IMG/VR virus record: IMGVR_UViG_3300030104_003363
Length of the DNA: 64,000 bases
Reading direction: 5' to 3' (one strand)
Origin: an uncultured virus (IMG/VR IMGVR_UViG_3300030104_003363)
Lineage: Duplodnaviria; Heunggongvirae; Uroviricota; Caudoviricetes
Within the stretch, counting starts at the first letter, position 1; each line of letters begins with the position of its first letter. The notes beneath the pieces were generated by a model. That model saw only the letters and a program-made list of their open reading frames with translations, was not told where the DNA came from and ran no database searches. The position numbers and the translations under genes are program-made. This document shows, piece by piece, positions 1-59,248 of this stretch.

Positions 1-101
1 GACGTTCTTATTACTTTGCGTTGTGAAAAATGCGGAGATACACAAGAACATACTTTAGATTTAGAAGATGTAATATACGATTTAGATTTGGGGTGGAACG
101 A

Positions 102-986
102 ATGATAACACATACTTTTAACTTAAAAGATTTAAGCATATATCATGCTTCGCCCGTAAGGAGAAACGATGAGGGTAAAACTGTTATACAACAATGTGAT
201 GTAGTATTGCAGAATAAGAGTAATGATTTCCGTATTATTAGGAGAGAAGTATTGAAGCAGTTATTAGACTACTGTTATGAATCATGCCGCCAAGAACCTT
301 TGAGTAAATCCGAGTTTAATTTCATGTATAGAAATTGTATAGAACACAGACCATCTAGTTTTTCGCTAAAAGCAATAATACATGATGCTATTTATGATGC
401 AGACGATGTAGAAATTACATTCATCTGTAACGAGAATCGTAGAACCGTAGTAGAAATACCGCAAAAGAAACCACTACAATTAGATGATATGTTTTTCACT
501 ACTTGTCGTGATACTTTATCTAGTGTTTGTCGCTTGAGAACGAGCGAGAGGAAGCAACAAGAGTTTAGACCAAAAATATTGTTAATGAACACTAAAGCCA
601 CTAAAGAAATGATAAATATTGCGAAGGGTAGAGTGCTTTCTAGTATTTTTAGGACAAATCTAATAATAGACACAATACTAGACTATTCAATCTTACTAGA
701 GATAACACAATTACCAAAACACTATACCATAGCGGTCAGAATTAAGTGCGGTAGTGGGTATGTACAACCTGTACCCGAACACACCAATGACGGGCTTGTA
801 TGTATGGAAAACAACGATGTTTTACATAGTGTCTTGAAACAGATTTTAGAGAACCTAGACAATGAAATAAGTTTGGGTAATTTATCAAAATTAAAAGGTA
901 AAAAGGCGTGGAATAAATACAGCCCTAACCTTTGGTTTTCCGATAAAAATAAGTTAGAACGTGAAAATTATTTATTCTTTTTATGA
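102..986 (+). CDS. Hypothetical protein (probable start ATG 102; ORF track starts at 30)
   Basis: Long open frame; GGGGTGG upstream of ATG 102; no recognised motif. Confidence 0.6.
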   Translation: MITHTFNLKDLSIYHASPVRRNDEGKTVIQQCDVVLQNKSNDFRIIRREVLKQLLDYCYESCRQEPLSKSEFNFMYRNCIEHRPSSFSLKAIIHDAIYDADDVEITFICNENRRTVVEIPQKKPLQLDDMFFTTCRDTLSSVCRLRTSERKQQEFRPKILLMNTKATKEMINIAKGRVLSSIFRTNLIIDTILDYSILLEITQLPKHYTIAVRIKCGSGYVQPVPEHTNDGLVCMENNDVLHSVLKQILENLDNEISLGNLSKLKGKKAWNKYSPNLWFSDKNKLERENYLFFL

Positions 987-1008
987 TTCTAAATTACGCA
1001 AAAAGAAT

Positions 1009-1150
1009 AACAGGCTTGCAGTACTGCGGTTTTGTTAATTCTTTAATTAATTCAATAGTATGTTTGGTAAGGCCATCTACTATTATTCTCATCTATGTTA
1101 TAGAAGAAATAAAATTAATTATAAAATGGAGAGCAGTACAGCGTTTTATT
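1009..1150 (+). repeat. Conserved non-coding element, copy A (28-bp core at 1088-1115 plus GCAGTAnnGCGTTTT boxes)
   Basis: CTCATCTATGTTATAGAAGAAATAAAAT is the exact reverse complement of 49943-49970; the box at 1133 has the same 17-nt spacing as in copy B. Confidence 0.85.
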
Positions 1151-1190
1151 CTTTTTACGGAAAGCAGAAATAAAAAAAAGAAATAAAAAG

Positions 1191-1221: not shown

Positions 1222-1629
1222 ATGGGAAGAATGACAGGCACTATGATACAGGATGAAGTGTATAACATACTAAAGGATTCAGAAGAAGGAATGACAGCGT
1301 ATGACATAAACAAATTGTTGAATGATAAAGATTTGCTTAGACAGAAAAATAGAGAGCGAGAAGAAAACGGTGATTTTATTGTTAGGGTAAAAGGAAATGG
1401 TAGTGGTAATACCACAACCCAATTATCCGCTAAACTAAGTAGAAGTATATTATTTGACAGTAGGACAGAAAGTAGAAGAAATCAAGCAGGGGTTCTAACA
1501 CCTACTGCTGTTTACACAGTAAGAGATTTAGATGTAGCACATGATAAGATGATTAAAAGTAAAAAGAAACTAAATAAGTTTCCTAAAGTACTGAGACAAT
1601 ACCACAAACAAAAGGAGATGGGACAATGA
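1222..1629 (+). CDS. Winged-helix DNA-binding protein (paralog of 63517-63909 and 5898-6296)
   Basis: QLSAKLSRSILF / FPKVLRQY align with ELASLLSKDRLF / MPKILRDAY. Confidence 0.55.
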   Translation: MGRMTGTMIQDEVYNILKDSEEGMTAYDINKLLNDKDLLRQKNREREENGDFIVRVKGNGSGNTTTQLSAKLSRSILFDSRTESRRNQAGVLTPTAVYTVRDLDVAHDKMIKSKKKLNKFPKVLRQYHKQKEMGQ

Positions 1630-2510
1630 AAATTAACATAGTAGAAACTTATGGCGATACAGATATTGTATGGAATAAGATATATGGTGAACATACATCT
1701 AAACAGTCTACAACTCTTATAGTCTTTAATCAGAATGAGAAGGGCTATGCTAGTTTTATTACAGGCATGGGTTTGATAGGTGATGAGAAACCTGTTGCTA
1801 GAATCTTTAGTAGGCTACATCAAGTAGAGCCTTTCAACAACTACCCCGAACCTGTATTTCCCGAATGGAGATTATTTGAAAAGAGGAACAAAGATGGTAG
1901 GAGATTCTTTATTCTTAGGGTTACACATACATTCCCTATACATAGTGATGACGAATCTTCTATATCGTGGTTATACACATACCCAATCATTAGAGATATT
2001 GTTTTAGCACTAAACAATAAGGGTGTTGATTCTATATGTTATCTTACGGTAAATCTAATGCAAGAGTTTTCTACTACAACTCATGGTATGATACATGAGA
2101 ATCAAATAGGAATCTTTGACTACATGAACCACGAAGAAGATATTCAGTTAATTACTAAATATGATGATGCTAACGAAACATTATTCCGAACAAAAACAAA
2201 ATTAAAAGAAGATATAGTGATGCCGTTGCCTGTTTGGGGATTCGGCTCGGTGTTCAAGAACTTCTGTACTAATACAATTAAGGAAAATATAACTGTAATA
2301 GGCGGTAGGGATAGGAATACATTTGTAAACGAAGAAACACAGGAAACACTATCATGGTGGATGAGACATCATTACAAACTAGAGACAGACCACGAAAAGG
2401 AAAACTATTTAACCGTTCTATTGTCTGACTTAGAACACCTTACCAAGCCGCTAAGTCTTGATAGGGCTATGGTAGAGTTTGGGGGTACTAATTTTGAAGA
2501 ATCAGTTTAA
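1626..2510 (+). CDS. Possible PAC2-family (proteasome assembly chaperone-like) protein
   Basis: GYASFITGMGLI..PVARIFS and YPIIRDIVLALNNKGVDSICYLT resemble PAC2 conserved blocks (by eye). Confidence 0.4.
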   Translation: MKINIVETYGDTDIVWNKIYGEHTSKQSTTLIVFNQNEKGYASFITGMGLIGDEKPVARIFSRLHQVEPFNNYPEPVFPEWRLFEKRNKDGRRFFILRVTHTFPIHSDDESSISWLYTYPIIRDIVLALNNKGVDSICYLTVNLMQEFSTTTHGMIHENQIGIFDYMNHEEDIQLITKYDDANETLFRTKTKLKEDIVMPLPVWGFGSVFKNFCTNTIKENITVIGGRDRNTFVNEETQETLSWWMRHHYKLETDHEKENYLTVLLSDLEHLTKPLSLDRAMVEFGGTNFEESV

Positions 2511-3828
2511 CGTATTTACAAAGACACAAGAGTTTGCTAATAGAAACTTCTTCATTGATGTAGATGACAAGATACCTATATTTCTATGTAGCATAGGTGG
2601 ACATTTGTTTAACACCCTTAACAAATGTAGTCGGTGTGATTTTGACCCCGATAGCCCACTATACACGACAGGGGATTTCGTCATAGAGCATTGTCCACTA
2701 CGGCATAACAATATGCCATTCTATACGCCAATGTCTCAGTTACCTGACACAAGGATTCATCTAATGCTTAGAGGTGCTAAAGGTTCGGGTAAAAGTATTC
2801 TCATCCTCATGTTCCTAGCGGAAGGTACAGGTCTTGTTCATAGTAATAATGCAGATATGGGTCAAGGCTTCCGTACAATGATGGGTGCTAATTCTGTTAC
2901 AGAAGCAGGTATGTTCGGCTCGGTGGATGAGGATGGTAATATAGCAGGGCGACCTATCGCTAGAGAGTTATGTGGCGGATTCTTAGGCTTCGAAGAGTTT
3001 AGTAGTATGTCTGATGCATCTAAAAAAGACCACAGCCTAGACATGAAGAATCAGTTACTTACGTCATTAGATAATGGTAGGGTACAAAAAGCCATGAGAA
3101 ACGGTTGGGTACAATATACTACTAGATACACAGTATGGGCGGGAACACAACCTGCTAGATTTGAATTGGAATCGGGATTAGATAGACGATTCTTCATTAT
3201 TGATATTGAGATGACACCCGATAAGGAACAGGCTTACAAGAGGGCACAGCACCTTCAAGCAAATATGCAGATAGCAGAAAGGGCTTCATTGGCTAATCTC
3301 AACATAGAAATCAAGGAATGGATTAGAAGAAGGCAACAAGAAGCGACAAGAAATCCACCAACAGGTGTTCTTTTCGACGACGAAGTTGCTGAATGGATTA
3401 ACAGACCCGATGTACGTTCTTTTGAGGCAGATTTATTTCGTAGATTATGTATAGGTTATCACATGATGCAGCCTAATTATGTTGGTGGACAACCACTAAT
3501 AATTACTCTTGACGATACTCTTAGGGGAATACTAAATCAATCACTAGAGATGAGAAGAAGAGTAATGGATGCAGACCTTGACTTAATCAAGAGTACGTTT
3601 TGGATGAAGGATATACCTAAATCAGTACTGTTGAAAGAAGTTTCCAAGATGGTTACGGCGGGTGATTATCAATCGGCAAAGAGATGGGTTACTGAAAACC
3701 TAGAAGGTCAATCGTGGTACGGAGAATACGCACCTAACGTCAAGAGGCGTGGTAGAAAGGGTGTTACTTGTCGTATCGGTACACAACGTCTTGAATCAGA
3801 CGAAGAAGAACAAAAGTGGGGTATATAG
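2479..3828 (+). CDS. mcm: MCM-like AAA+ replicative helicase
   Basis: Walker A GAKGSGKS, SVTEAGMFG, GGFLGFEEF (Walker B), LLTSLDNG, arginine finger LDRRF; N-terminal CxxC...C Zn site. Confidence 0.7.
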   Translation: MGVLILKNQFNVFTKTQEFANRNFFIDVDDKIPIFLCSIGGHLFNTLNKCSRCDFDPDSPLYTTGDFVIEHCPLRHNNMPFYTPMSQLPDTRIHLMLRGAKGSGKSILILMFLAEGTGLVHSNNADMGQGFRTMMGANSVTEAGMFGSVDEDGNIAGRPIARELCGGFLGFEEFSSMSDASKKDHSLDMKNQLLTSLDNGRVQKAMRNGWVQYTTRYTVWAGTQPARFELESGLDRRFFIIDIEMTPDKEQAYKRAQHLQANMQIAERASLANLNIEIKEWIRRRQQEATRNPPTGVLFDDEVAEWINRPDVRSFEADLFRRLCIGYHMMQPNYVGGQPLIITLDDTLRGILNQSLEMRRRVMDADLDLIKSTFWMKDIPKSVLLKEVSKMVTAGDYQSAKRWVTENLEGQSWYGEYAPNVKRRGRKGVTCRIGTQRLESDEEEQKWGI

Positions 3829-4110: not shown

Positions 4111-4719
4111 ATGCGTAGTGCTAGAGAAATACAACAACGACTTCACGGAGAAACTGATGCGTTTGCTATTGAGGTTCTTAGGTGGGTACTAGACGGTGGA
4201 TGCCCTATGTGCGACCACAAATCCAAGAAGGACTATGAGTTAGGTATTATGAATGAAGAGTTTAGTGCTACATTCCTAGAAGTTAGACACAATTGGAATG
4301 AAGGTACTGTTATGAATCACATGGACAATCACATTGAGTTTGATGCATTACAAGCAAAAAACATGGAGAAGGATAGACAACAGACTATCTCTACTTTAGA
4401 TGCAGCAGAAGATATTGTAATTAGGATTCAGAACTATCTAAATGAGTTAGAAGAACAGAAAGAAGCACAAGGCGGAATATCCTCTGAGTTCGTTACTGAT
4501 GCGGCAAAACTAATAGGCCAAGCAAACTCTAGTCTTAAGTTGGTAGGACAACTAAAGAAAGAGATAGGTGTAGATTCTCAATTGATGTTAGCCCAAGCAC
4601 AAGTCAATGATATGTCGAGAATACTGATAGAAGTATTAGGTTCTCACCCACAGTTGTTAGACCAAGTAGAATTGAAAATGGCTATGTTGAAAGAACCCTC
4701 GGTGATTGTAGATGGCTAA
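4111..4719 (+). CDS. Zn-binding (CxxC...HxxxH) coiled-coil protein, possibly terminase small subunit
   Basis: CPMCDH...HMDNH followed by helical region; GAGGTGA SD. Confidence 0.4.
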   Translation: MRSAREIQQRLHGETDAFAIEVLRWVLDGGCPMCDHKSKKDYELGIMNEEFSATFLEVRHNWNEGTVMNHMDNHIEFDALQAKNMEKDRQQTISTLDAAEDIVIRIQNYLNELEEQKEAQGGISSEFVTDAAKLIGQANSSLKLVGQLKKEIGVDSQLMLAQAQVNDMSRILIEVLGSHPQLLDQVELKMAMLKEPSVIVDG

Positions 4720-5897: not shown

Positions 5898-6296
5898 ATG
5901 AGTGCTAATAACAAAAGAGTCCGTCGCATAATCGTGGACATCTTATGGGAACATGGTGCTATGACAAAGGAAGGGATGGCTGCTATGTTAAGTAAAACAA
6001 AAAACATTAGAACCGTACCTTCGCCCCATAGTCTTTCCGCCTTACTTAGCAAGAATCCACAAATAACACAAGTGGGTTCTACTAAGGTAGAAAATGCAGT
6101 AGGAACTACTGCTAAACATTTAGTTTACGATGTAGATAGAGAGTTAATAAGGTGCAAGGAGGATATTATGCTTACTAGAAGTCCTACCGTTATGACACCA
6201 TCTCAGATGGAACAGTCGCAACAATGTAGTTGTGGTAAGATAAGAATATTTCCCCCAAATGAAACTCGATGCTTACATTGTATTAGAAAAGTATAA
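5898..6296 (+). CDS. Winged-helix protein (DUF3860-like) with C-terminal Zn ribbon
   Basis: HSLSALLSKNPQITQVG; CSC...CLHC; TTTATAAG 30 nt upstream. Confidence 0.55.
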   Translation: MSANNKRVRRIIVDILWEHGAMTKEGMAAMLSKTKNIRTVPSPHSLSALLSKNPQITQVGSTKVENAVGTTAKHLVYDVDRELIRCKEDIMLTRSPTVMTPSQMEQSQQCSCGKIRIFPPNETRCLHCIRKV

Positions 6297-36994: not shown

Positions 36995-39900
36995 TCACCC
37001 TATAACTATCCATGTACTAGCATCTACGGCTATAAATGTTTTAGACTTATATCTTGTTGTTATTAGTTGATTAGTAGTAGAACCATTCATTGTATCAGAA
37101 CCATTAGAATCTATTGTAACTGTACCTGTCGTATCACTAAAAATAAGATATTGTTCACCTGCTGCCGGACTAGCAGGGAGATTCATTGTGGCTGTTGCTG
37201 TTACTATAATATATTTACCCGCATAGTTTGTGTTAAGAGTAGTAGTGCTGTTAAGACTAACTACCATACCTTCATTTAGTTTTACCCCATCACTAAATGT
37301 TTTTTCTCCCGAAAATGATTGTGTTCCGCTTGTTACACCAGTAGGTCCTGTAGGGCCGGTAGGTCCCGTAGGTCCTGTTCCGCCACTTGGTCCGGTCGGC
37401 CCATTCGGTCCCGTAGGTCCTGTAGGTCCTGTCGAACCCGGCGGCCCAGTTGGGCCTGTATCTCCGGGCGGGATTGTAAAGGCAAAAACCTTAGCAGTCG
37501 CAGGTCCACTAGATGCAATTGCTAGCGGGCCACTCGCTACCGTAGGCGTACCAAAACCGGCTGCCGTTCCGGTAGGTCCCGTAGGTCCCGTAGGCCCAGT
37601 AGGTCCGGGCGGCCCCGCAGGTCCGGTCGGCCCAGTAGGTCCGGTACTTCCGGGTGGTATTGTAAATGCAAAGACTTTTGCAGTTGCCGGACCGCTTGAA
37701 GCAATTGCTAAAGGCCCGCTTGCTACGGTGGGTGTTCCAAACCCTGCGGCTGTTCCTGTTGGTCCAGTCGGTCCGGTTGGTCCCGCAGGGCCAGTAGGTC
37801 CAGTCGGTCCGGTTGGTCCAGTAGGTCCAGTTGAACCCGGTGGTATTGTAAAGGCAAATATTTTGGCTGTGTCCGGTCCACTTGAAGATATAGCAAGCGG
37901 TCCACTTGCCACCGTTGGGGTGCCAAATCCGGCAGCAGCCCCAGTTGGTCCACCCGGTCCTGTTGAGCCGGGCGGTCCTGTCGGACCTGTCGGACCTGTA
38001 GGTCCTGTCGGACCTGTAGGGCCAGTATCTCCCGGTGGAATCGTGAATGCAAATACTTTAGCAGTATTAGGGCCGCTACTAGATATAGCCAAAGGACCAC
38101 TAGCAACCGTAGGTGTTCCGAAACCTGCCGCACTTCCTGTTGAACCTGTCGGTCCTGTAGAACCCGGTGGTCCAGTTGGACCTGTCGGCCCAGTTGGTCC
38201 CGTAGGACCTGCCGGCCCAGTTGAGCCGGGTGGAATAGTAAAAGCAAAGACCTTTGATGTATTTGGTCCACTACTACTTATAGCAAGAGGACCGGAAGAA
38301 ACTGTCGGTGTTCCAAATCCGGCAGCAGCACCCGCAGGTCCAGTAGGTCCTGTATCTCCATCACCACCGGCCGGTCCGGTTGGTCCGGTAGGGCCTGTTG
38401 GTCCGGTAGGTCCTGTTGGTCCTGTACCACCGGGCGGTATAGTGAAAGCAAATATCTTAGCCGTGTCCGGTCCACTTGCTGAAATTGCCAAAGGTCCGGA
38501 AGCCATAGTAGGTGTACCAAATCCGGCTGCTGTTCCTGTACTACCTGTTGGTCCATTTGGTCCAGTTGGTCCACTAGGTCCCGTAGGTCCGGTTGGTCCT
38601 TCATCTCCTTGTGTACCTTGAGGTCCGGTAGGTCCACTTGGCCCAGTTGGGCCGGGTGGTCCGGCTGAACCCGTTGGACCGGAAGGACCAGTAGCCCCTG
38701 TATCTCCTTTGTCTCCTGTTCTAGCAAAAGTTACCATAACATCTTCACCATCTGAAAACGGTGAGGAAGCGGAAGAGTCTATTGTACTTACTGTTATGTC
38801 AAAATAACCCGAATCTTCTGCTAAAGATGAAATAGTGTGTAAAGTAAATTGGCTTGAGTCTGTTAAGTTGCTAATTTTAACATGACCTTTTATTGTTGAT
38901 GTAGAATCATCAATAGTACGAAGGAATGATTGAATATCAGTACCGTCTAAATCGCTATCATCTATGTATATAGCAGTAGCAGATGATTGAGTACCGTTAT
39001 TTAGTTTTACCTTACCTGCACCGGGGTCGCTATCGCTAGTATTTGTAGAAAAATCATATTTGAAAGATGCACCACCAAAGTTACCGTCTGCACCACTTGG
39101 TCCTGTCGGCCCTGTACTACCTGCCGGCCCAGTAGGCCCAGTAGGACCACTTGGCCCAGTAGGACCATTTGGTCCGGTAGGACCTTGACTACCAGTAGGA
39201 CCACTAGGTCCTGTAGGCCCTGTCGGTCCCGCAGGTATAGTAAAGGCAAATACTTTTGCACTATCCGGCCCACTTACTGCTACTGCTAAAGGCCCTGTGG
39301 TTATAGTAGGTGTTCCTACACCTGCTGCTGCACCCGAAGGCCCTGTCGGTCCGGTAGAACCTGTTGGTCCTGTTCCCCCCGATGGACCAGTAGGACCAGT
39401 AGGGCCTGTAGGTCCTGTTGGTCCGGTAGAACCGGGTGGAATTGTAAAAGCGAAAACTTTTGCTGTGTCCGGCCCACTAGAGCCGATTGCTAATGGACCA
39501 CTAGCAACTGTCGGTGTACCAAAACCTGCGGCAGAACCCGTAGGGCCAGTATTACCTTGTGTTCCTTGTGGGCCTGTAGGTCCGGTAGGTCCTTGTGAGC
39601 CTGTTGAACCCGTAGGTCCGGGTGGACCTGCCGGTCCTGTACTGCCTTGAGGCCCTGTTGGACCATCCGGTCCTACATTTCCTTGAGGTCCTTGAGGTCC
39701 TGTCGGTCCAGTTGAACCTGTATCTCCTTTATCACCCGTTCTTGCGAAAGTAACTGCTACATCTTCACCATCACTAAAAGGGGATGTTGTGGAAGAATCT
39801 ACTGCACTTACTGTTATATCGAAATAACCTGTATTTTCTGTTAGAGAAGATATAGTAAATAATACAAACTGTGAAGGGTCTGTAAGGTTACTTACTTTAA

Positions 39901-41524
39901 CATGACCTTTTATAGTAGATGTGGAATCGTCAATGGTTCTCATAAAAGATTGTATATCGCTACCGTCTAAATCAGAATCGTCAATATAAATACCCGTAGC
40001 AGCATTTTGTGTAGAGTTATCAAATCTTATTTTACCTGCACCGGGGTCTGAATCTGTTGTTGTCGTACTAAAATCATACTTAAATGTAGCACCACCAAAA
40101 GAGCCTTGAGGACCAGTTGGGCCAGTTGGACCACTAGGCCCAGTTGGACCGCTAGGCCCTGTGCTTCCTTGAGGACCAGTAGGTCCTGTTGGACCAGTAG
40201 GACCTGCTACTGTTGAATCTGCACCAGTTGGACCTGTTGGTCCGGTAGGACCACTTGGTCCTGTGCTTCCTTGAGGACCTTGACTTCCTGTTGGGCCTGT
40301 TGGTCCAGTTGGGCCATTCGGACCAGTAGGTCCTGTAGACCCAGTAGGTCCTGTATTTCCCGCTTGTGAAAACTCTACTACATATTTTGTATTGTTTGAT
40401 AATGCGCCCGTTTGTGTTGCCGAAGTAGGGGAAACGCCTAATTTATACCATCCTGTCATATCTGTAACGCTATTTACTACTAAATCAGCAAATTGTTCTG
40501 TATCACCTGCTCTAAGAGTTATATGTATAGTACCTTTTCTAGTGCCAGTAGAAGCAGCCATATAAGTAAAGAAAGCATCTTGATTTACACCCGCAGCATC
40601 TTCTTCATCAATGTATATTTCTGTAACACTAGCAAATGTAGCATGGTCGAATCTTAAAAAACCTGAAGTAGGGTCTGCTTCTGTTGTGGTTGTACTAAAC
40701 TTCCAATTAAAACCGGATTTTACTGCCGTACCGGGCGGTCCTGTTGGCCCAGTTGGTCCTGTTGAGCCAGTTGGCCCTGCGGGAATAGCAAACGCAAAAA
40801 CTTTTGCTGTATCAGGACCACTTGCTGTTATGGCTAAAGGACCTGTACTTACACTTGGGGTTCCGAAACCCGCAGCAGCACCAGTAGAACCAGTCGGGCC
40901 GGTTGAACCTGTGCTACCTGTGGGTCCAGTTGGCCCAGTCGGTCCGGTAGGACCATTTGGACCAGTCGGACCTGTTGGACCGTTAGGTCCTGTCGGACCA
41001 GTTGGACCTGTCGGACCAGTTGGGCCAGTAGCATTGTTTTGATATGCAATCCATGTATCTTGTGTAGCACTATGTCTTAAGTAGACTTTTTGATTTTGTG
41101 TTAAGGTAAAAGTACCGCTAGTACCTGCGTTAGAGACACCAGTACCTACAAGAGAAACTACTGTGCCATCATCAGTAGCAATAGTAATATTACCTGTTCC
41201 TTCATTCATAACTTGTAATTCTGATAAACCTACTGGAAAAGGAACAGCAGAATATGTAGGTAGTTTGTAAGTATATGTAGAAGAATCTGTATGAAGTATC
41301 ATACGTGCTTCGTCTGCTCTAGTAAATGTGTAATCAGCATTTTTTGTTTCTAGTGGTCTAACATCTGCCGACCTACCACCTGCCGTAGCGCCATCACCAA
41401 TAAAAACACCATTAGCGGCTGAACCTGTATTAGTATCTAGGAATATCTGCTCCTTAGTAGGCGTAACACCTGCTCTTTGAGTTGTAGTAGCAGTAAACAG
41501 GTTTTTATTGCTTGTTAATGCCAT
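36995..41524 (-). CDS. Collagen-like (Gly-Pro-Thr) fibre protein
   Basis: Extensive GPT triplets, nine AAGFGTP..GPLA..SGP.TAK.FAF.IP interruptions, three copies of a ~125-aa globular domain. Confidence 0.92.
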
Positions 41525-43716: not shown

Positions 43717-44133
43717 TCAAGGGTTTGAATATCCTAGCACGAAAACATGGACTGCCGGTGCTGTGTCATCAGAGGATGTAGATGTTACTTTGAGAGTACC
43801 ACCTGCACTAATCTTGTAGTAAGAATCATCTATCTCGCCACATCTTACGACATCTTTATCACCTGCTGTTCCAGTTACGAAAGCATCAGTAATAGCATCA
43901 GTACCGTTAAGAACTTGTAGACTGTTAGCGTTTGCTCCACCGTCTGCTAAGAGATGGCACCATACATCAACAACTTCAAGATTACGGTCTACGGTTAGTG
44001 AAACACTTTCTGTTGCTCCACCATCTACTGCTATTTTGTAAAGGATAGGTATAGACCCACCAGTTCCACCATTAGAGACTTGCTTGGTATTAATACCAGT
44101 CATTAGGTTTTGTAACTTACGGTTAATAGGCAT
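43717..44133 (-). CDS. Probable capsid decoration protein
   Basis: Small beta-rich protein directly after the major capsid protein. Confidence 0.45.
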   Translation of the reverse strand: MPINRKLQNLMTGINTKQVSNGGTGGSIPILYKIAVDGGATESVSLTVDRNLEVVDVWCHLLADGGANANSLQVLNGTDAITDAFVTGTAGDKDVVRCGEIDDSYYKISAGGTLKVTSTSSDDTAPAVHVFVLGYSNP

Positions 44134-44147
44134 TTATTTTACCCCCC

Positions 44148-45059
44148 TTAAGCCCTTACGCCTGTAATCTTACAGATTCGGTTGTTCTTACCTGCTGCTG
44201 CTCCATCTTGGTGTTCGTGGATAACGCTACCCATGTAAGATGTTAATAGCCAGTCGAAACCGACACCCGGTAGACGAGTTAATTCAGTCTCTTGGAATCC
44301 CGGTCCATTGTATGTAAAGAACTCTGCTGTTTCTGCACCCGGAATCAATAGTAGACCATCGTTTACCAATGCGCTACCTGTTCCGTAATCTCTTGTGTAA
44401 TATACTGTTAGGTTTGCGATTCTACCCAAGTGTTGTTGTAGAGACTCAACTACGTTTCCGTAAAGAGTTGTGTTAAGCATAGCACTTCTCTTGTCAGCAG
44501 GTAGTACTAGAGCCATTGGCTCACTACCGCTAACCTTTGCGTTAGCAAAGATTAAGTCCATAGCATCTAGCAAATCTTTTTCTTCGTCTGCCGAAGCACT
44601 ACCGAAGGTTGAAGTTGCTGCTTGTGATTGACCGTTACCTGCCATCAATTTTGATAGGATGTGGTTGTCTATTAAGTCTGCACGACCTCTTACAACAGCC
44701 ATTTGTTGCCTGTCAATGTTCTCGAAAGATTCACCACGTAGACGTACTGCATCTAGGAAAGTAACACGGCCTTGTCCTTTTTCAAGTTTAACTGTGTAGT
44801 TTGCTGTACCGATGTTTGTTGGGTCGGTTAGTGCAACGTCATCAATTGGGTAAGAGAATGTACCAGTAACACCTGTGTACCATTTGAACTCTAACCAAGG
44901 TACGGTTCTAACACCGACTAAGTTAGTTGCGATAGCAATTGTGTTAGACTGCAATTGAATGAAGTCTCTTAGAGTTTGTTCTAAAACCGCATCTCCTACT
45001 GAGAACGGGCCTGTTGCTGCTTCTACGTTTAATATTTCTTCTAATGTATTGTTAACCAT
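44148..45059 (-). CDS. Major capsid protein (HK97-fold, inferred)
   Basis: ~300 aa; order portal-protease-cement-MCP; GAGGTGA SD before ATG 45059. Confidence 0.75.
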   Translation of the reverse strand: MVNNTLEEILNVEAATGPFSVGDAVLEQTLRDFIQLQSNTIAIATNLVGVRTVPWLEFKWYTGVTGTFSYPIDDVALTDPTNIGTANYTVKLEKGQGRVTFLDAVRLRGESFENIDRQQMAVVRGRADLIDNHILSKLMAGNGQSQAATSTFGSASADEEKDLLDAMDLIFANAKVSGSEPMALVLPADKRSAMLNTTLYGNVVESLQQHLGRIANLTVYYTRDYGTGSALVNDGLLLIPGAETAEFFTYNGPGFQETELTRLPGVGFDWLLTSYMGSVIHEHQDGAAAGKNNRICKITGVRA

Positions 45060-45087
45060 TTTATTCACCTCAATTTATTTGCTATAT

Positions 45088-45501
45088 CTAACAAGATACA
45101 GGAATAAAGTCTCCCGATGCGATTGCACCTTCTCCACCAAAGTAGTACCCTACGAATACTGCTGAATTGGTTGCGTCATTTACTGTAACTGTTCCGTTAT
45201 CAGAAGCAGTTTGTGAAACATATACGGACATTCCAAACTTAGGTGCTGCTGTTGCTGCACCTGCTTTAAGATAGCAAATACCATCAAGAGCAACTACTGA
45301 AACTGTTCCTGTACCTGCTGCTTCTAATGCTTGGTCTGCATCTCTGCTTGATTCAGCCATTGTGTAAGCGATTGGTGTATCTGTTACACTTGCTGTCATT
45401 AGTATTCCACCTGCACCGTACTTAACTAAAAGTCCTTTGCTTGCGAAAGTTTCTGCTATGTCTACTACGTTTACTGGGTCATTTCCTGAATATGCTACCA
45501 T
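45088..45501 (-). CDS. Capsid cement/stabilising protein
   Basis: Small Ala/Gly-rich beta protein between scaffold and MCP. Confidence 0.55.
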   Translation of the reverse strand: MVAYSGNDPVNVVDIAETFASKGLLVKYGAGGILMTASVTDTPIAYTMAESSRDADQALEAAGTGTVSVVALDGICYLKAGAATAAPKFGMSVYVSQTASDNGTVTVNDATNSAVFVGYYFGGEGAIASGDFIPVSC

Positions 45502-45502
45502 T

Positions 45503-47431
45503 TTATCTCATCTCCTTTATTGTGTCGTATGTTGGTGCTTTCATTCTGTCTCCTTCACCAACTGCGAGTGTTTTGTTCCATGCTCCGGCCCATGCGTTCC
45601 ATGCTCTAGCATATAGGTCCTCATCATTTTCTACGATTTTTCCGTTCAAGTAGTTTGCTACTTTGCTAACGGATTCTGAAGCGATTGCTTCTTCAACAGG
45701 CTTCTCGACTGATTCAACAGGAGCCATTTCTACTTCTGTTGGTTGAGGATGAGCCTCATTCCATGAAGCAATTAGAGAAGTTAGTGTGTCTGATGACAAA
45801 TCTTCGTGTCCTGACATTCCTAATTCTGTTGCCTCATCAACAAGAGTTTGGCGGGCTGCCTCTACTCTTGCTTCTTCTTTTGCCTCAAACTCACCAACTC
45901 TTGAATTGGCTAATACGAGGGAAGCCTTAAGTGCTTCAATTTCTGCTTCGTAATCTACTGTATTTTCTTCTTGGCTCATTTTATTCACCTGTTTGTGGTC
46001 TGTGTCAGATTGTGAATGTCCTATAAAGGTTGCTTCGACCTTACTCGCTTGTATTTTTCTTATAGAATCTATTGTAGCACGTTCATATGCCGGTTTATGC
46101 ACAATAGCAAGGTGGTCGAACTTAAAATCTTCTCCAAACAACATACCATCTTCCGATGCTTCGACGGGTACGCCACTACCACCGATTGATACTCCGTAGT
46201 TTTCCCTAGACCATAGACCGGACTCTAAAGCATCAAACAATTCTGTTCTTACAACGTGTGCTACATACCTAACTTCATATCCACTACTTACTGTTTTGTG
46301 GAATGTTGCTCCTTTGATATATCCTACAACCGCTTCTTCTACTCCACCATCCATGTTTCTTGTAAATCCGCTACCATATTGGCTTGCTGCCGGATGATTT
46401 AGTGTTAAGTCTGCACCTTTCATTTGTTCTGCTACTAATTTTGCACCTTCTTCTGTCAAAGCCCATTTGTTTTTATTCATACCTTCGTGGAATGCAACAC
46501 CTCTTATTTCTATAACGGTATTTCCAGTAGATGCTTCTACTATTGCTTCTACCTCATCAAAATCTAAATCTAAGGTAACAGAAACTTTTCTGCATTCACC
46601 ATCTATCATTTTTTCTCCGTAGCCACATTCATTAGCATATTTCTTTTTCTTCATACCGTAACCTGCTTCGTGGTCCTCTTCGTCATGTGGTTCGCTTTGG
46701 TCTTTGAAAGTATGGCCTTCGTGTGCTTTCATACACTCTTCTTTAGTATAGTTCATAGCCATACACCTAGACATATATTCATCATGTGTTTCAGAATCTT
46801 TAGGTGTTGGCTCTGCTGCTTGTTTCAAAGCCTTTTCCATTGACGGTTCGGGGTCCTCTATGTAAGCAACACTCATACATTTACCATGAGATGCACATTT
46901 TTCTTGTGTCATACAAGAAGAACAAACATCGTATGCTGCTTCTGCCTTTTTCTTAATAGGTATGCAATTAGGTACTTTTCTACCGTTTTTCATTTTCATA
47001 CCGTATTGTTCATAACCCGATGTACATGGGTCATCAGCATCTTTAGCCTCTACCTCTTCATCGTTACAACCGCAACCGCACGGAGTACCATCTTCTGCTT
47101 CTACCTTTGTGCCACCACGCCATTGTCTGCAAGACCAATATCTTGCCTTCCATTTTGGTCCGGGTGTGTTACAGTTATGCCTTGCACGAAATGATTTTCT
47201 TCTTTCAGGGTCATCTCTCTTGATTTCCATATTAGGGTCGCCAAACCTTACTATGACTACGTTCCCACTACCATTTTTAGTATATACTGCGAACTTTTTC
47301 GGTCCACCTTTAGTTCTAAAAGGCTTGTTAAGGGTAACTTGTCGGCCTTGATACTCTGCTGCCGAGACATCTTCTTCATCCCATTCTTCATAAGCAACTA
47401 CTTCACCACTACAACCGCACCCACACGACAT
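45503..47431 (-). CDS. Prohead protease-scaffold fusion with multi-module N-terminal extension
   Basis: GVAFHEG.NKN, LNH, GVSIG, FDHLAIVHKPAY protease motifs; C-terminal coiled coil. Confidence 0.82.
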   Translation of the reverse strand: MSCGCGCSGEVVAYEEWDEEDVSAAEYQGRQVTLNKPFRTKGGPKKFAVYTKNGSGNVVIVRFGDPNMEIKRDDPERRKSFRARHNCNTPGPKWKARYWSCRQWRGGTKVEAEDGTPCGCGCNDEEVEAKDADDPCTSGYEQYGMKMKNGRKVPNCIPIKKKAEAAYDVCSSCMTQEKCASHGKCMSVAYIEDPEPSMEKALKQAAEPTPKDSETHDEYMSRCMAMNYTKEECMKAHEGHTFKDQSEPHDEEDHEAGYGMKKKKYANECGYGEKMIDGECRKVSVTLDLDFDEVEAIVEASTGNTVIEIRGVAFHEGMNKNKWALTEEGAKLVAEQMKGADLTLNHPAASQYGSGFTRNMDGGVEEAVVGYIKGATFHKTVSSGYEVRYVAHVVRTELFDALESGLWSRENYGVSIGGSGVPVEASEDGMLFGEDFKFDHLAIVHKPAYERATIDSIRKIQASKVEATFIGHSQSDTDHKQVNKMSQEENTVDYEAEIEALKASLVLANSRVGEFEAKEEARVEAARQTLVDEATELGMSGHEDLSSDTLTSLIASWNEAHPQPTEVEMAPVESVEKPVEEAIASESVSKVANYLNGKIVENDEDLYARAWNAWAGAWNKTLAVGEGDRMKAPTYDTIKEMR

Positions 47432-47462
47432 GGCTAACCAATTTTAGGTTTGTCTTATTAAT

Positions 47463-47822
47463 CTATTCTAATATACCGGATTGTTTAAGGCTTTCTATCA
47501 AATCTTTGTAGATAGAATAATCATTCAAAGTACAAATAGGTTCTATATGTGTATCACCTACACTATAATTAGAATATGCTTTAGGGCTTACATATACCTT
47601 AAAATCTTCACTAATATAAGTGTAGTTATCTTCTACCCTCACTATAATGTAAAATGGTTCTTTTTCTATTATTTCACCACTAACTGTTGTACAACTAATT
47701 GCGTTGGGGTCATAGAATGGGCTATTTTCGTAAACGGGTGTAGTAAAAGGTACTATAAAAAAACACACCATTAGTACTGCTATCGCCTTTTCTATGGCAT
47801 CGTCTTTATCCATTAGCCCCAC
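47463..47822 (-). CDS. Membrane-anchored hypothetical protein
   Basis: N-terminal hydrophobic helix. Confidence 0.55.
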   Translation of the reverse strand: MGLMDKDDAIEKAIAVLMVCFFIVPFTTPVYENSPFYDPNAISCTTVSGEIIEKEPFYIIVRVEDNYTYISEDFKVYVSPKAYSNYSVGDTHIEPICTLNDYSIYKDLIESLKQSGILE

Positions 47823-47893
47823 TTTTCCGTATCAAGAGCCATAGCAGCGATAACGATAAAGACAAGTATAAGGCATACTTCGTTGAGAGTCAT
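47813..47893 (-). CDS. 26-aa hydrophobic peptide (not in ORF track)
   Basis: MTLNEVCLILVFIVIAAMALDTEKWG; TATA-like box upstream. Confidence 0.4.
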   Translation of the reverse strand: MTLNEVCLILVFIVIAAMALDTEKWG

Positions 47894-47926
47894 ATACACC
47901 AAGTCATATTAGTGATTTATGATTAT

Positions 47927-49824: not shown

Positions 49825-49907
49825 ATATTAACCAGTTTTAGCCCGTTTTATAACACTTTTTGATAATTTTGCTTATTTTTTTTATTTTTTCGATATTCTA
49901 CAGAATT

Positions 49908-50069
49908 AATAAAACGCAATACTGCGGCAATTTCTTCTATTTATTTTATTTCTTCTATAACATAGATGAGTTAAATTAGTAATAGATTAGTTATCAGACA
50001 GGGCCGTCGCTATCCCATACTAAAGAAAAAATAAATTAATTCCGAAACAGGCTTGTAGTACCACGTTTT
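49908..50069 (-). repeat. Conserved non-coding element, copy B
   Basis: Inverted homolog of 1009-1150 in the divergent portal/phosphoesterase gap. Confidence 0.85.
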
Positions 50070-50123
50070 TTTTATTTTGTAAACAACATAAATTATAAAA
50101 TTAAATAAGTATTATAAGACGGT

Positions 50124-53204: not shown

Positions 53205-53483
53205 GTGAAGAAGCGATATAACAAACAAAACCCCGAAATAAGAAGGCATGGACCAAAAAGCAAAAAAATTGTCTATAAGGAATCTATTGATAAAGTAATG
53301 GATGAAGGATATTTAGACGATTGGAAAACATCAGAAGAAATTGCGTGGAAAGCAAATAAATATGTAAGTAATTATTGGACACCACTTTCTAGGAATATAG
53401 TCCCAACGTACTTGAAGCGTACTAACCAAGTAAAATGGCGTAGGAAACCCGGCGCACATAAACTTGAGTGGAAAAAAATGTAA
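53205..53483 (+). CDS. Small basic winged-helix-like protein
   Basis: WKTSEEIA...IVPTYLKR. Confidence 0.5.
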   Translation: MKKRYNKQNPEIRRHGPKSKKIVYKESIDKVMDEGYLDDWKTSEEIAWKANKYVSNYWTPLSRNIVPTYLKRTNQVKWRRKPGAHKLEWKKM

Positions 53484-54808: not shown

Positions 54809-54814
54809 ATGTAA

Positions 54815-54850: not shown

Positions 54851-54877
54851 TAAAACATCACAATAGGGGGTAAAAAC

Positions 54878-55670: not shown

Positions 55671-55865
55671 ACAAAGGGGCTACCCTACAAAATAATTTTA
55701 TTTTTTTTCTGTTGTGCTACCCTACAAAATATTAGCCTACAAAATATTACCCTACAAAACTTTAACCTACAAAACTTTAACCTACAAAAGTCTGAGAGAA
55801 TCTAAAATCTAAAAATGTTTTCAAAAACTAAGATTTCAAACCCTACAAAATAAAGTAAATTATCC

Positions 55866-55897
55866 AAAAAAAGAAGGGGACTAGCCCCAACTTTTTT
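55866..55897 (-). terminator. Short hairpin flanked by A/T tracts
   Basis: AAAAAAGAAGGGGACTAGCCCCAACTTTTTTT directly after the 55898 stop. Confidence 0.55.
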
Positions 55898-56431
55898 TCA
55901 AATATCCGATGCAAACTTTAGCATCTCTTCCGGCACTTTTCTGAATAATAACCATTGTCCAGAATCTCTGGATTTCATAACCCAATATCCAGCAGCCTTA
56001 ATATCTGCTTTATTTTCTCTCCATTCATCCCAGAATGCTTTATCATTGATATGGCCGTACCAGACCGTTCTACGGCGACTCATTTTCATGGTAATACCAA
56101 ATGCTTCCATATTAGTAAACACCGGCCTAGCCGAGTCGTATTGCTTAATTTTAGCACCTTTATCACCTAGTTTGTCTCTGATTGCTTGTGCTTTTACTTT
56201 TGCCTCAGTTTTATTGTGTGCTAGGTTCTGAATAAAGGATGAAGTATGGAAGTAACCATATGCACCTCTAATCAATCTATCAATGTACAGGGTGTAGTAT
56301 TGTTCTTTATCACCTGTTCTACATACATAGTATGTAGCCTCAATTTTGGGTTTTTGCGTTTTAGGGCTTGCGTCATCAAGTTTAGCGGCCTGTAGTAATA
56401 ATACTAGACCTAGTAGGATTCCAACCAACAT
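55898..56431 (-). CDS. Hypothetical protein with N-terminal signal/TM segment
   Basis: MLVGILLGLVLLLQAA; TATATATA promoter and downstream terminator. Confidence 0.7.
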   Translation of the reverse strand: MLVGILLGLVLLLQAAKLDDASPKTQKPKIEATYYVCRTGDKEQYYTLYIDRLIRGAYGYFHTSSFIQNLAHNKTEAKVKAQAIRDKLGDKGAKIKQYDSARPVFTNMEAFGITMKMSRRRTVWYGHINDKAFWDEWRENKADIKAAGYWVMKSRDSGQWLLFRKVPEEMLKFASDI

Positions 56432-56643
56432 GATTCATACGAAGTGGTATTAGTATATATATATTATTGGTTATTAGGATAATATTTTGTAGGGTTAGGT
56501 TTCTATTATACTGCGTATGTCATCCCTACAAAATCTTATGTAGCATATTAGGTCAAACAACATAGGTCAACCCTACAAAATATGGGTCAACCCTACAAAA
56601 AAATGAGGGCGGGGTGTTGCAGCACCCCAACCCTACAAAAGAT

Positions 56644-56781
56644 TTATTGCGTTATTTTACGGTAACGAGCCGCCCCATTTTGATACCCTACAAAAGAGTA
56701 TTTTTTTGGGCATGGGTAGCCCCATTCATTCTTATTTTTCTTACTTAGCCTATCCGCTTTAACTGTACCTTTTAAGGACAT
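56644..56781 (-). CDS. 45-aa basic protein (not in ORF track)
   Basis: MSLKGTVKADRLSKKNKNEWGYPCPKKYSFVGYQNGAARYRKITQ; promoter matches that of 56431; GGGGTG/CACCCC hairpin plus T-tract downstream. Confidence 0.6.
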   Translation of the reverse strand: MSLKGTVKADRLSKKNKNEWGYPCPKKYSFVGYQNGAARYRKITQ

Positions 56782-57579
56782 ATTTTACTCTAGTCGTGTT
56801 TTGCTTATAGTATTATTGGTAATCTATCTCTTTATTTTGTAGGGTGTTGTAATATTCCCTAGTATTGTCTCCTACAAAACAATATGTATGGATTTTATTT
56901 TGTGTCCTCTAAGTATAGGGGTTTCATGCCCTAAAAAATCAACCCTACAAAATAATAATAAGTGTAATTTTTACACTAAGTGTTGTGAATAACACCGAAT
57001 AACCCTACAAAATAAGTTTTTTTAGCAAAAAAACCCTACAAAATATTGAGCCGTAAAAAGGTAGTATTTATATAGGTAAACAGCATCTCATCACGGATAT
57101 TTAGTTTTGCGGGATTATTTTGTAGGGGTAAAATAACATGGCCGGATTTGACACACAGTCGAGCGTGTAAAATAAAAACCCTACAAAATAAAAAAAACGC
57201 TGTACTGCGGCGGTGCAAAAAGTAAACCTGAGATTTTTTCCCTACAAAATAAAACCTACAAAAGATTTTCCTACATTCATTTATCCACAATTATTTTGTA
57301 GGGGTTTTCCGAAGTCAAAAAGTTACTTAGTGTAAAAACTACACCGAGTGTCAAAAATCACACCTACTGTTAAACACACACTAAGATATTTTGTAGGGGT
57401 TGGGTACTCTAAAAAATGAAAGACCCTACAAAAGATTAAATAGAAAGATTATTTTTTTGGTAAAACAAAACCCTACAAAAGACAGGCTATAAGATGATGA
57501 AAAATTACAAAAAGTTACCCTACAAAATAAGGAGAATGAGAATAGAAACGCTTATAAAGGGTAACGATATATTCAAATT

Positions 57580-58158
57580 ATGAGTAAAATTAGAAAACCG
57601 TGCAGATACAAACAATGTAAAGGGGTTGTCCATCGTGGAAAATGTCCAGTAGCCTCAAAAAGAGGTTCAAAAGGTGGTAGCACTACCGGCAAATCAAAAG
57701 CGAGAACAGGTTCAAATAATGGTCGATTTACAGGACTTCGAGAATGTGGATGTCCAAAAAGACAACATTTACCTTCTTGTATTCATTCTCAATTAACATT
57801 ACAAAAAGTCAAAATTATTAACGCACATGATTTCAATTATAATGAGAATCTATCACTTGAGATTTACGACCAAAAAATGCAATCTAAGTTTCCAAAGTCA
57901 AAGACTAAAATTAGAATTGCGAGAAAAGAAAATATCCCACTTAAAAGAACTGTGGCAAATTGGGAATTAGAAAATGCCGTCAAGGTAAAATCAATTCCTC
58001 ATTATTCATTCTTAAAATATACGGGCGTGTGTGCCTCATGTGCGTGCGAGAAAAATATCAAAGACGCTCACGTCATACACGTAGACGATATTAAATATAA
58101 ATTACCAAAAGAGCATTATTTCAAGGCTCGAATAATTTGCGACGCTTGCGAAGCATAA
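57580..58158 (+). CDS. Basic Cys/His-rich (multi Zn-finger-like) protein
   Basis: CRYKQC..H..C, CGC..H..C, CASC, CDAC; CTTATAAA TATA upstream. Confidence 0.7.
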   Translation: MSKIRKPCRYKQCKGVVHRGKCPVASKRGSKGGSTTGKSKARTGSNNGRFTGLRECGCPKRQHLPSCIHSQLTLQKVKIINAHDFNYNENLSLEIYDQKMQSKFPKSKTKIRIARKENIPLKRTVANWELENAVKVKSIPHYSFLKYTGVCASCACEKNIKDAHVIHVDDIKYKLPKEHYFKARIICDACEA

Positions 58159-58195
58159 TCGGAGACTCTAAATACTATTAACAAAAGGTGAGAAC

Positions 58196-58300
58196 ATGGA
58201 CAAAAGAGGCGTAAATAACAGAGGTAGAACTCAAAGAATTGTTAATTTGCTTCTTGATGATTCTAAAAGATACGGGAGACAAAGATATGAACAACGATAA
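58196..58300 (+). CDS. 34-aa basic peptide (not in ORF track)
   Basis: ATG exactly 54 nt after the promoter element. Confidence 0.45.
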   Translation: MDKRGVNNRGRTQRIVNLLLDDSKRYGRQRYEQR

Positions 58301-58532
58301 ATATAATGGATGGACAAACAGAGAAACGTGGCTTATTAATCTACATTTTGAGCCAAGAAATCTTAGTGATTTGGATTTCATAAATGATGAGATAATAACT
58401 TATGCTAAAAAAATCCAAGAATTACCTTACGGTATGTTCTTTACAGATTTTCTTGATTTGAGTAAAATCAATTGGTACGAATTAAAAAATCACGTTCAAG
58501 AAAATTATGATGACGCTTGTGAAGCAGAATGA
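58287..58532 (+). CDS. Conserved phage protein (YNGWTNxETW motif)
   Basis: MNNDKYNGWTNRETWLINL; GGAG SD. Confidence 0.7.
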   Translation: MNNDKYNGWTNRETWLINLHFEPRNLSDLDFINDEIITYAKKIQELPYGMFFTDFLDLSKINWYELKNHVQENYDDACEAE

Positions 58533-58872
58533 AAGACTTTAAATAAGATTGACGATAAGATTAAATTGTAAGAAAAACAACGGAGATAAAAAATATGTAT
58601 GAAGATAGCGAATGGCTAAAAGAAATGATTGAAAACACGAAAGCGGGTAAGATTTATTTGGCGGGGTCTGAAAGATGAAAGATTTCCGCCCGACACTTCA
58701 AAGAAGAATTGATTTGAAGAAATCAAATCCGGCCTTGACCCTTTGGGCTAGGCAAAAAATTGATGAACTCGGATTGAATGCCGAGAAATATTAGATTTAC
58801 CAAAAAAGTAAAACTTGCCTTCCGGCATTAGGTTCGGGAGAGGACTTGTTTTGTAGGGTCAAAAAACCTTTC

Positions 58873-58907
58873 GGGGTGCATCCATTCGGGTGCATCCCAC
58901 TTTTTTT
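58873..58907 (+). terminator. Hairpin plus T-tract terminator
   Basis: GGGGTGCATCC-ATTC-GGGTGCATCCC then AC-T7. Confidence 0.7.
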
Positions 58908-59248
58908 ATTTTTATAGCCTATATTTTGTAGGGTTAAAGAGTGATTTTTTTTTATTTCAGATTCAAATATTTTGTAGGGTAGTTACTTCTTCCGCAAAAA
59001 TAATTTTGTAGGGTCGCCCCTTTTTTTGTAGATACATATACCCTACAAAATAATTAAGCCTGTCTTTTGTAGGTTAATTACATTTACAGTAAAACTAAAA
59101 ATCCTACAAAAGATTTCAAATCCAAAAACTAAAACCCTACAAAATAAAACCGTAAAAGAAAAAATAAAACTCAAAAATAAACCCTACAAAATAACGCTTG
59201 TGTAGCAGAATTGAAAGACTTAAATAAAATTACTTTTTGGTGTTAAAT

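What the first reader, a model, noticed from the sequence alone, without database searches (positions are those of the whole stretch)
1009..1150. Same non-coding module, with a perfect 28-bp core, heads both major operons 49 kb apart in inverted orientation
Seen: 1088-1115 (CTCATCTATGTTATAGAAGAAATAAAAT) is the exact reverse complement of 49943-49970. In both copies a GCAGTAnnGCGTTTTATT box follows after exactly 17 nt, and both carry a second box AACAGGCTTGyAGTAC (1009; 50046). The core contains the dyad TCTAT-GTT-ATAGA. One copy precedes the replication-operon promoter and the other precedes the portal promoter; a further GCAGTACAGCGTTTT box lies at 57194-57208 (minus strand). Inference: paired replication origins, a shared master regulatory switch, or recombination sites that could invert the 49-kb core.
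Basis: partly seen in the sequence, partly recalled or inferred. Interest (0 to 1): 0.8.

Follow-up and report, generated by a model that had tools for sequence, protein, structure and literature searches.

The report
Twin-armed DNA docking sites, magrovirus
An abundant ocean virus of archaea carries the same 220-letter mirror-symmetric DNA site in front of its replication genes and between its head and packaging genes, and its relatives keep both; it is most likely a protein docking platform where copying of the virus genome starts, and it is not a flip switch.

Summary
The 28-bp inverted repeat is real and is the longest in the window, but it is only a fragment. The window is a group C magrovirus (~68-kb circular map). 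Each copy is a dyad of two gap-free ~91-bp arms around a 21-72-bp centre. One copy heads the MCM operon; the other lies between portal and exonuclease/terminase. At least one arm occurs at both places in 15 of 15 related genomes, and 160 of 160 motif-first hits lie at these two places. The perfect 28 bp is lineage-specific (10-19 bp elsewhere). Inversion is not supported (0 of 72 loci, 0 of 15 genomes, no recombinase found), nor is a structured RNA. The arm facing no promoter is as conserved as the arm facing one. The central 22-bp box occurs in either orientation. Some genomes carry a third copy in an iteron field, one of them ~0.8 kb from any gene. Best reading: a double-stranded-DNA protein platform (~0.9), most likely an Orc1-independent replication origin that also gates neighbouring promoters (0.45); purely transcriptional switch 0.35. 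No binder or activity is shown, and skew gives no origin signal.

The parts
970..1061 (-). Module A, upstream ('away') arm, ~91 bp. Faces no gene and overlaps the last codons and stop (986) of the upstream 318-aa gene.
   Evidence: PWM score 69.5 with flipped box; upstream stop at arm index 75
1010..1031 (+).
1062..1094 (.). Module A centre, 33 bp; begins GTTTGGTAAGGCC, as in many portal-side centres
1088..1115 (+). The 28-bp perfect repeat: last 7 nt of the centre plus the first 21 nt of the arm; lineage-specific
1095..1186 (+). Module A, downstream arm (box 1125-1146), ending just before the TATA-like TTTATAAT at 1191
1222..1629 (+). First gene of the replication operon: fast-evolving small HTH-like protein (DUF3860 hits in 4 of 12 homologues); no homologue clustered in 3 of 17 genomes
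2479..3828 (+). MCM-like AAA+ helicase (Walker A GAKGSGKS; named from recalled motifs, no family hit)
   Evidence: translation; clustered in 17 of 17 genomes
4111..4719 (+). Conserved 202-aa Zn/helical-hairpin protein with small-terminase-like layout (recalled resemblance, unconfirmed); candidate binder
   Evidence: fold search uninformative
5898..6296 (+). Conserved winged-helix plus Zn-ribbon protein, TFE/TFIIE-alpha-like; candidate binder or general transcription factor
   Evidence: pLDDT 91; best Foldseek match TFIIE 5gpy_A, E 4.8e-4
49872..49963 (-). Module B, portal-facing arm (box 49912-49933); TATA-like TTATAAAA at 49853-49846, portal ATG at 49824
49964..50016 (.). Module B centre, 53 bp. 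In 11 of 21 non-redundant long centres of relatives it holds a 6-7-bp stem with a GNA triloop; this genome lacks it.
50017..50108 (+). Module B, exonuclease/terminase-facing arm (box 50047-50068); TATA-like TTATAAG at 50112, probable ATG at 50142
55684..59191 (.). Iteron field: 36 of the window's 37 CCTACAAAA copies, both strands, between the terminase block and the early genes
57195..57208 (-). Lone box in the iteron field, in the region where G014, G017 and G018 carry a full third module

Best explanation
Each module is a two-fold symmetric landing platform on double-stranded DNA, and most likely a replication origin of this virus that also gates the adjacent operon promoters. Shown: two back-to-back arms of fixed internal spacing. 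Read outward, each arm has two GAAAGAATT-like A-tract units, a 22-bp GC box that occurs in either orientation, an inverted T-tract unit and an outer A-tract unit; the arms flank a centre of variable length. Inferred: a dimeric protein binds each box and further subunits hold the A/T units. The 80-130-bp AT-rich stretch between the boxes opens, where many relatives can fold a GNA-triloop DNA hairpin. The virus's own MCM-like helicase and primase load there without Orc1/Cdc6. Copies sit at operon boundaries and, in some genomes, in the iteron field. Because TATA boxes lie 0-20 bp beyond the arm ends, occupancy probably also affects middle and late transcription. The initiator is not identified; candidates are the conserved wHTH-Zn protein (5898-6296), the 202-aa protein (4111-4719) or a host protein.
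For: Conservation does not depend on a promoter. The away arm of module A has the same information content as the gene-facing arm (87.1 vs 86.8 bits; 32 and 31 non-redundant arms), although in 27 of 32 it overlaps the upstream gene's stop at arm index 37-87. The arm-to-ATG distance is not fixed (mostly 114-139, a few 87). A full third copy exists in 3 of 16 fetched genomes, inside the iteron field; in G018 it is ~0.8-0.9 kb from the nearest gene starts. Lone boxes are modestly enriched in iteron fields (17 in, 90 out, fields 7.9% of DNA, p=0.004; reversed control 4 vs 56). DNA between the boxes averages 75% A+T, and the windows at modules B and A rank 1st, 4th and 5th among the most AT-rich 100-bp windows. 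Eleven of 21 long centres have a perfect stem with compensatory changes and a GNA triloop, a DNA-type hairpin reported at single-strand origins and the N4 promoter (PMC13037366, passages). The virus encodes PolB, RFC and an MCM-like helicase but no detectable Orc1/Cdc6, and module A heads the MCM operon. SPP1 gives a precedent for two similar origins bound by one phage protein (PMC6316719, passages).
Against: No activity or binder is shown. The GC-skew minimum near module B is a codon effect: at four-fold sites the coding-strand skew is negative in all blocks (-0.07 to -0.22) and does not change across module A (-0.088 vs -0.108). The centre itself is not especially AT-rich (67%) and varies from 21 to 72 bp. 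The hairpin is absent from this genome and is not a common feature of short centres. A freely orientable box is atypical of polar initiator sites (recalled). Both constant copies end right at promoters, and the third copy in G014 also has a TATA and gene at +108/+147. The lone-box enrichment rests mostly on 3 genomes (G016, G018, G024).
Confidence: 0.45

Rival explanations
1. Purely transcriptional master switch or insulator: a multimeric DNA-binding protein wraps both arms, sets the timing of the replication, head and packaging operons, and blocks incoming early transcription at module A.
For: 160 of 160 motif-first hits lie at the two operon heads. TATA-like boxes follow the arm ends within 0-20 bp and, in many A copies, coincide with the outer unit. 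An orientation-free box suits a dimeric operator. Long spacers cluster near 50, 60 and 70 bp (Rayleigh p~2e-4 at period 10, n=21, lineages not independent). The virus encodes a TFE-like and other HTH-like proteins. Repeated intergenic elements of halovirus HF2 proved to be promoters (PMC8707807, abstract and passages).
Against: The promoter-less arm is equally conserved. Spacing to the start is variable. The same element heads middle and late operons, unlike HF2's class-specific repeats. One full copy lies far from gene starts. Short spacers fill 21-34 bp without phasing.
Confidence: 0.35
2. Packaging or genome-architecture site: each ~91-bp arm wraps a small-terminase-type ring (candidate 4111-4719) or another organiser of concatemer DNA.
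For: Module B adjoins the portal and terminase genes. Boxes recur in the iteron field. The 202-aa protein is conserved in 16 of 17 genomes and has a TerS-like layout (recalled).
Against: There are two or three copies, one ahead of the replication operon. The contig depth steps at 52.6 and 60.0 kb do not coincide with a module. The fold search matched only generic helical hairpins.
Confidence: 0.1
3. Recombination sites that invert the 49-kb core.
For: The two copies share a perfect 28-bp inverted match here. The same two-base change appears at both copies relative to sister lineages, which may reflect a past gene conversion.
Against: 0 of 72 informative portal loci and 0 of 15 genomes show the inverted arrangement. 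Contigs run unbroken through module B in 4 of 4 runs (contigs drop rare variants). No recombinase hit. The longest A-B match is 10-19 bp in the other genomes.
Confidence: 0.03
4. Structured non-coding RNA or long single-strand hairpin formed by the two arms.
For: Module A folds well as single-stranded DNA (z -4.69). Arms of one module are slightly more alike than shuffled pairs (0.663 vs 0.634), which shared ancestry can also explain.
Against: No consensus pairs in 35 sequences and no Rfam match. There is no wobble bias (86 G-T vs 99 A-C), and module B has z -1.33. Box flips destroy the pairing.
Confidence: 0.02

Closest known systems
Archaeal chromosomal origins (Orc1/Cdc6-ORB; WhiP-oriC3 in Sulfolobus, PMC3607249 passages; the inverted-ORB/unwinding-element layout is recalled)
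   Same: Inverted protein sites flanking AT-rich DNA, next to replication genes, in a replicon with an MCM-type helicase.
   Different: No ORB-like motif in the modules and no Orc1/Cdc6 gene detected. Arms are ~91 bp and multipartite, and the box is orientation-free.
Phage SPP1 oriL/oriR (PMC6316719, passages)
   Same: Two similarly built sites, one at the replication genes and one among late genes, with short repeats and AT-rich DNA; oriL overlaps a gene.
   Different: SPP1 origins consist of direct repeats bound by a known protein (gp38). These modules are dyads, the host is archaeal, and no binder is known.
Halovirus HF2 intergenic repeats, classes I and II (PMC8707807: abstract, passages, section 3.7)
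   Same: Repeated, positionally conserved non-coding elements heading the polymerase and morphogenesis transcripts of a tailed archaeal virus; one class II repeat sits at a strand switch.
   Different: HF2 repeats are 29-58 bp, contain the TATA box and start site, and differ between early/middle and late genes. This module is ~220 bp, symmetric, lies mostly upstream of the TATA box and is the same for middle and late operons.
Papilloma/polyomavirus origin-promoter regions (recalled, not tested here)
   Same: Palindromic dimer sites that serve both helicase loading and promoter control, between divergent promoters.
   Different: Unrelated viruses and proteins; functional analogy only.

Membership tests
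Archaeal Orc1/Cdc6 origin (oriC) | ORB consensus boxes | tested here: not met
   A recalled short ORB core gave 8 matches at <=1 mismatch against 14.8 expected, none in the modules
Archaeal Orc1/Cdc6 origin (oriC) | Adjacent or encoded orc1/cdc6 or whiP gene | tested here: inconclusive
   No hit among 66 window ORFs (Pfam, PHROGs), 21 (NCBIfam) or 16 ORFs of the 4.2 kb outside the window.
Archaeal Orc1/Cdc6 origin (oriC) | Inverted sites flanking AT-rich unwinding DNA | tested here: met
   Dyad of arms with 75% A+T between the boxes; the centre alone is only 67%
Archaeal Orc1/Cdc6 origin (oriC) | Strand-skew switch at the site | tested here: not met
   Four-fold-site skew does not change across A, and the minimum at B is explained by coding
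Archaeal Orc1/Cdc6 origin (oriC) | Initiation activity | not testable with these tools
   Needs 2D gels, nascent-strand or marker-frequency data
Site-specific inversion system | Both orientations found among genomes or reads | tested here: not met
   0 of 72 loci, 0 of 15 genomes, 4 of 4 runs unbroken
Site-specific inversion system | Conserved identical crossover core in both sites | tested here: not met
   Longest A-B match 10-19 bp in 15 genomes, 28 only here
Site-specific inversion system | Recombinase gene | tested here: inconclusive
   No family hit; a host recombinase is not excluded
HF2-type intergenic-repeat promoters | TATA box and start site inside the repeat at a fixed position | tested here: not met
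   ATG at mostly 114-139 from the arm start; TATA lies at or beyond the arm end; away arms have no gene
HF2-type intergenic-repeat promoters | Promoter activity | not testable with these tools
   No RNA holder listed
Structured ncRNA | Consensus structure with covariation or an Rfam family | tested here: not met
pac/cos packaging site | Single site at the genome end bound by small terminase | tested here: inconclusive
   Two or three copies; only contigs were available, so ends cannot be seen; TerS identity unconfirmed
Magrovirus group C (the genome) | GroEL-type chaperonin, no DNA ligase, DP1-like exonuclease gene in the structural module, small genome (PMC5434244, section 5 parts 1-2) | tested here: met
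   assigned from gene content, no tree built

The most novel reading that the evidence does not exclude
Group C magroviruses use an undescribed, Orc1/Cdc6-independent origin present in two or three copies. Each is a ~220-bp dyad of rigidly spaced 91-bp arms with an orientation-free central box, on which a viral initiator assembles and loads the viral MCM-like helicase while controlling the middle and late promoters. It would be a first defined origin and initiator for these marine archaeal viruses.
Probability: 0.35. Interest if true: 0.78.

Novelty: new variant of a known kind. Interest (0 to 1): 0.56.

Why it matters
Magroviruses are among the most abundant ocean viruses and encode a near-complete archaeal replisome, but neither virus nor host is cultured (PMC5434244). 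I found no origin or regulatory element described for them in the papers searched. This element supplies a defined, lineage-wide DNA substrate and a short list of candidate binders, so initiation or the transcriptional programme can be tested in vitro without a host. The motif was also specific to these viruses in every hit examined (160 of 160).

Tried and rejected
No whole genome is held for the window, so the circular map comes from an identical contig. The host test failed. The arm pattern found 0 matches in genome contigs, but it matches only 10 of 208 viral arms. The chaperonin search returned no Poseidoniales among its 80 listed loci. The looser pattern (77 of 208 arms) gave only magrovirus hits in the 80 metagenome loci examined, out of at least 117 (scan stopped at its limit). 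No RNA holder was listed. INPHARED held no portal match, only haloviruses and cyanophages among the 25 PolB rows shown, and not the group A reference accession, so groups A and B were not tested. Atlas searches for the 135-aa and 294-aa proteins gave only scores under 0.9. PDB sequence searches for the two candidate binders gave nothing significant. Active flipping of the box was rejected: the closest flipped/unflipped pair has 66% flank identity (78 flipped, 282 unflipped arms). GC skew was rejected as origin evidence. My first flipped matrix was one base off and was corrected. The 'none' class mixes in undetected HTH genes, so one search was used instead. Not in print as far as searched: term searches of PMC5434244, PMC11706807, PMC10160649 and PMC5332604 found no passage on such elements, and library searches listed no paper describing it. 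Supplements and subscription papers (e.g. Zhou et al. 2023) were not seen and may bear on this.

Full report
Observation. The 28-mer at 1088-1115 is the exact reverse complement of 49943-49970. It is the only exact inverted repeat of 20 bp or more in the window; the next is 18 bp. The boxes, the 17-nt spacing and the lone box at 57208 are as described. The box pattern occurs 8 times against 1.42 expected. The two AACAGGCTTGyAGTAC boxes are both on the + strand, hence opposite with respect to the two modules.

Context. The window encodes PolB, RFC, a chaperonin, portal, TerL, a tape measure protein and a phosphoesterase/exonuclease beside portal, plus an MCM-like ATPase named from recalled motifs. 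The chaperonin's closest cellular relatives are mostly bacterial, which fits GroEL, and no ligase was found. This matches group C magroviruses in PMC5434244 (section 5, parts 1-2); no tree was built. An identical contig joins window end to window start through 4.2 kb, giving a ~68.2-kb circle. Module A lies at the boundary of early and replication genes. Module B lies between the divergent portal and exonuclease/TerL operons.

Anatomy. Alignment of 35 portal-side regions shows two nearly gap-free arms around a variable centre. Iterated matrices define a ~91-bp arm. Read outward it has two GAAAGAATT-like units (index 8-25), a 22-bp box (30-51, GCAGTAnnnCGKTT), an inverted T-rich unit (50-60) and an outer A-rich unit (72-89). 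Two arms stand back to back with 21-72 bp between them (196 modules). In the window, A spans 970-1186 and B spans 49872-50108. The 28-mer is the inner end of the downstream arm of each. The box occurs in either orientation while the flanks stay fixed: 33 NN, 24 FN and 3 FF among 60 non-redundant modules. The closest flipped/unflipped arms share only 66% of their flanks, so flips are old events and not a switch. Reversed-sequence controls score at most 7.2, against mostly 20-70 for real arms.

Conservation and specificity. Of 16 long records fetched, 15 hold both regions, and all 15 have at least one arm at both A and B. In four cases only one arm passed the threshold, and G019's A arms are weak, at 19.0 and 13.4. 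G014, G017 and G018 have a full third module in the iteron field between TerL and the early genes. Scanning by motif alone, 80 of 80 IMG/VR loci (62 B, 18 A) and 80 of 80 metagenome loci (37 B, 42 A and one further A identified by its neighbour gene) were at these two positions. The perfect core is special to this lineage: the longest A-B match is 28 here, 10-19 in 15 other genomes, and at most 25 in 240 cross-genome pairs. An exact 28-mer was found in only 5 contigs, all close relatives. Sister lineages have ATACT where this one has ATGTT at both copies, which suggests a past gene conversion.

Inversion. Not seen. 72 of 80 portal loci show the divergent exonuclease and 8 lack upstream DNA. 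MCM and TerL share a strand in 15 of 15 genomes. One contig spans module B in each of 4 runs, though contigs drop rare variants. No recombinase was found.

RNA or hairpin. No Rfam match, no consensus fold, and no G-T over A-C bias across the dyad in 48 modules (86 vs 99). The arms behave as protein half-sites in duplex DNA. The exception is the centre: 11 of 21 long centres carry a perfect 6-7-bp stem with compensatory changes and a GTA or GAA loop. GNA-loop DNA hairpins are reported at single-strand origins and the N4 promoter (PMC13037366, passages). This genome lacks that hairpin.

Origin or switch. For a switch: TATA-like boxes follow gene-facing arms within 0-20 bp, long spacers cluster near 50, 60 and 70 bp, and HF2's repeats are promoters (PMC8707807). 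For a function beyond promoters: the away arm of A is as conserved as the gene-facing arm (87.1 vs 86.8 bits) although it overlaps a coding end in 27 of 32 cases. The arm-to-ATG distance spreads over 114-139. G018's third copy is ~0.8-0.9 kb from gene starts. Lone boxes are enriched in iteron fields, and the inter-box DNA is among the most AT-rich in the window. Against an origin: four-fold-site skew shows no signal, the centre is only 67% A+T, and G014's third copy does head a small gene. I put a duplex-DNA protein platform at about 0.9, an origin with a secondary promoter role at 0.45 and a pure switch at 0.35.

Binder. The first gene after A and the gene overlapping the away arm both diverge quickly, which fits poorly with so stable a site. 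The 132-aa protein at 5898-6296 has a near-invariant helix region and a confident winged-helix plus Zn-ribbon model closest to TFIIE/TFE; it may simply be a general transcription factor. The 202-aa protein at 4111-4719 is conserved, but its fold search was uninformative. A host binder could not be tested properly.

Known systems and novelty. By layout it resembles an origin with inverted initiator sites, or SPP1's paired origins (PMC6316719, passages). It is not an ORB origin by sequence and not an HF2-type promoter repeat by anatomy. I found no description in the magrovirus papers searched (PMC12999244 read whole); supplements were not seen. Two unchecked notes of this scan describe similar sites in other magrovirus genomes and lean towards gene switches. 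I did not test their genomes, and they are not independent support.

Verdict. The element is real, deeply conserved and larger than reported. It is not an invertible-segment boundary. Its function is unproven, and origin is narrowly preferred over switch. Interest 0.56; new variant of a known kind.

Noticed in passing
window 55684-59191; G007, G013-G017, G021, G024 and others: A 1-6-kb field of 10-mer iterons in both orientations between TerL and the early genes (36 copies here, up to 82 in G021). The TACAAA or TACAAAA core is shared by most genomes, with other words in G018 and G019; no clear field in G006 and G022. Possibly the genome terminus or an origin region.
   Followed up: partly
window 52584-59973: Contig depth is about 2x and 1.55x the flanks in two runs of one study. 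This could be a 7.4-kb terminal repeat, but a deletion variant at 54876-55087 shows a second strain there, which explains it equally well.
   Followed up: partly
window 6693, 58141, 58512, 59426, 61982, 63856 (and similar at 59194, 59600, 60981): Repeated GACGCTTGyGA(A/G)GCAGAAT motif ~55 nt upstream of early-region genes, followed by an AT-rich TATA-like box; probable early promoter element.
   Followed up: no
window 1191, 6718, 8143, 11148, 15551: Shared TATATAACCG-type TATA motif before replication-operon genes; probable middle promoter.
   Followed up: no
window 30-986: A fast-evolving 250-330-aa family sits directly upstream of module A; 27 of 28 such ORFs link by phmmer and end in a DRNKLE-like motif. 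Function unknown.
   Followed up: partly
window 5898-6296: Virus-encoded TFE/TFIIE-alpha-like winged-helix plus Zn-ribbon protein, present in 16 of 17 genomes.
   Followed up: partly
G015 44054-50072 (L188): Early genes including DUF932 lie on the opposite strand compared with the other genomes that have the gene, inside the iteron field; a local rearrangement not bounded by modules.
   Followed up: partly
window 36995-41524: 1509-aa collagen-repeat protein with a ~35-nt non-collagen unit recurring every 186-204 nt.
   Followed up: no
L001 14635-15210 (outside the window, same genome): Pyrimidine-dimer DNA glycosylase-like gene among the early genes.
   Followed up: no
G022 11321 (L214): A lone arm (score 30) inside the replication block, between RFC and PolB.
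   Followed up: no
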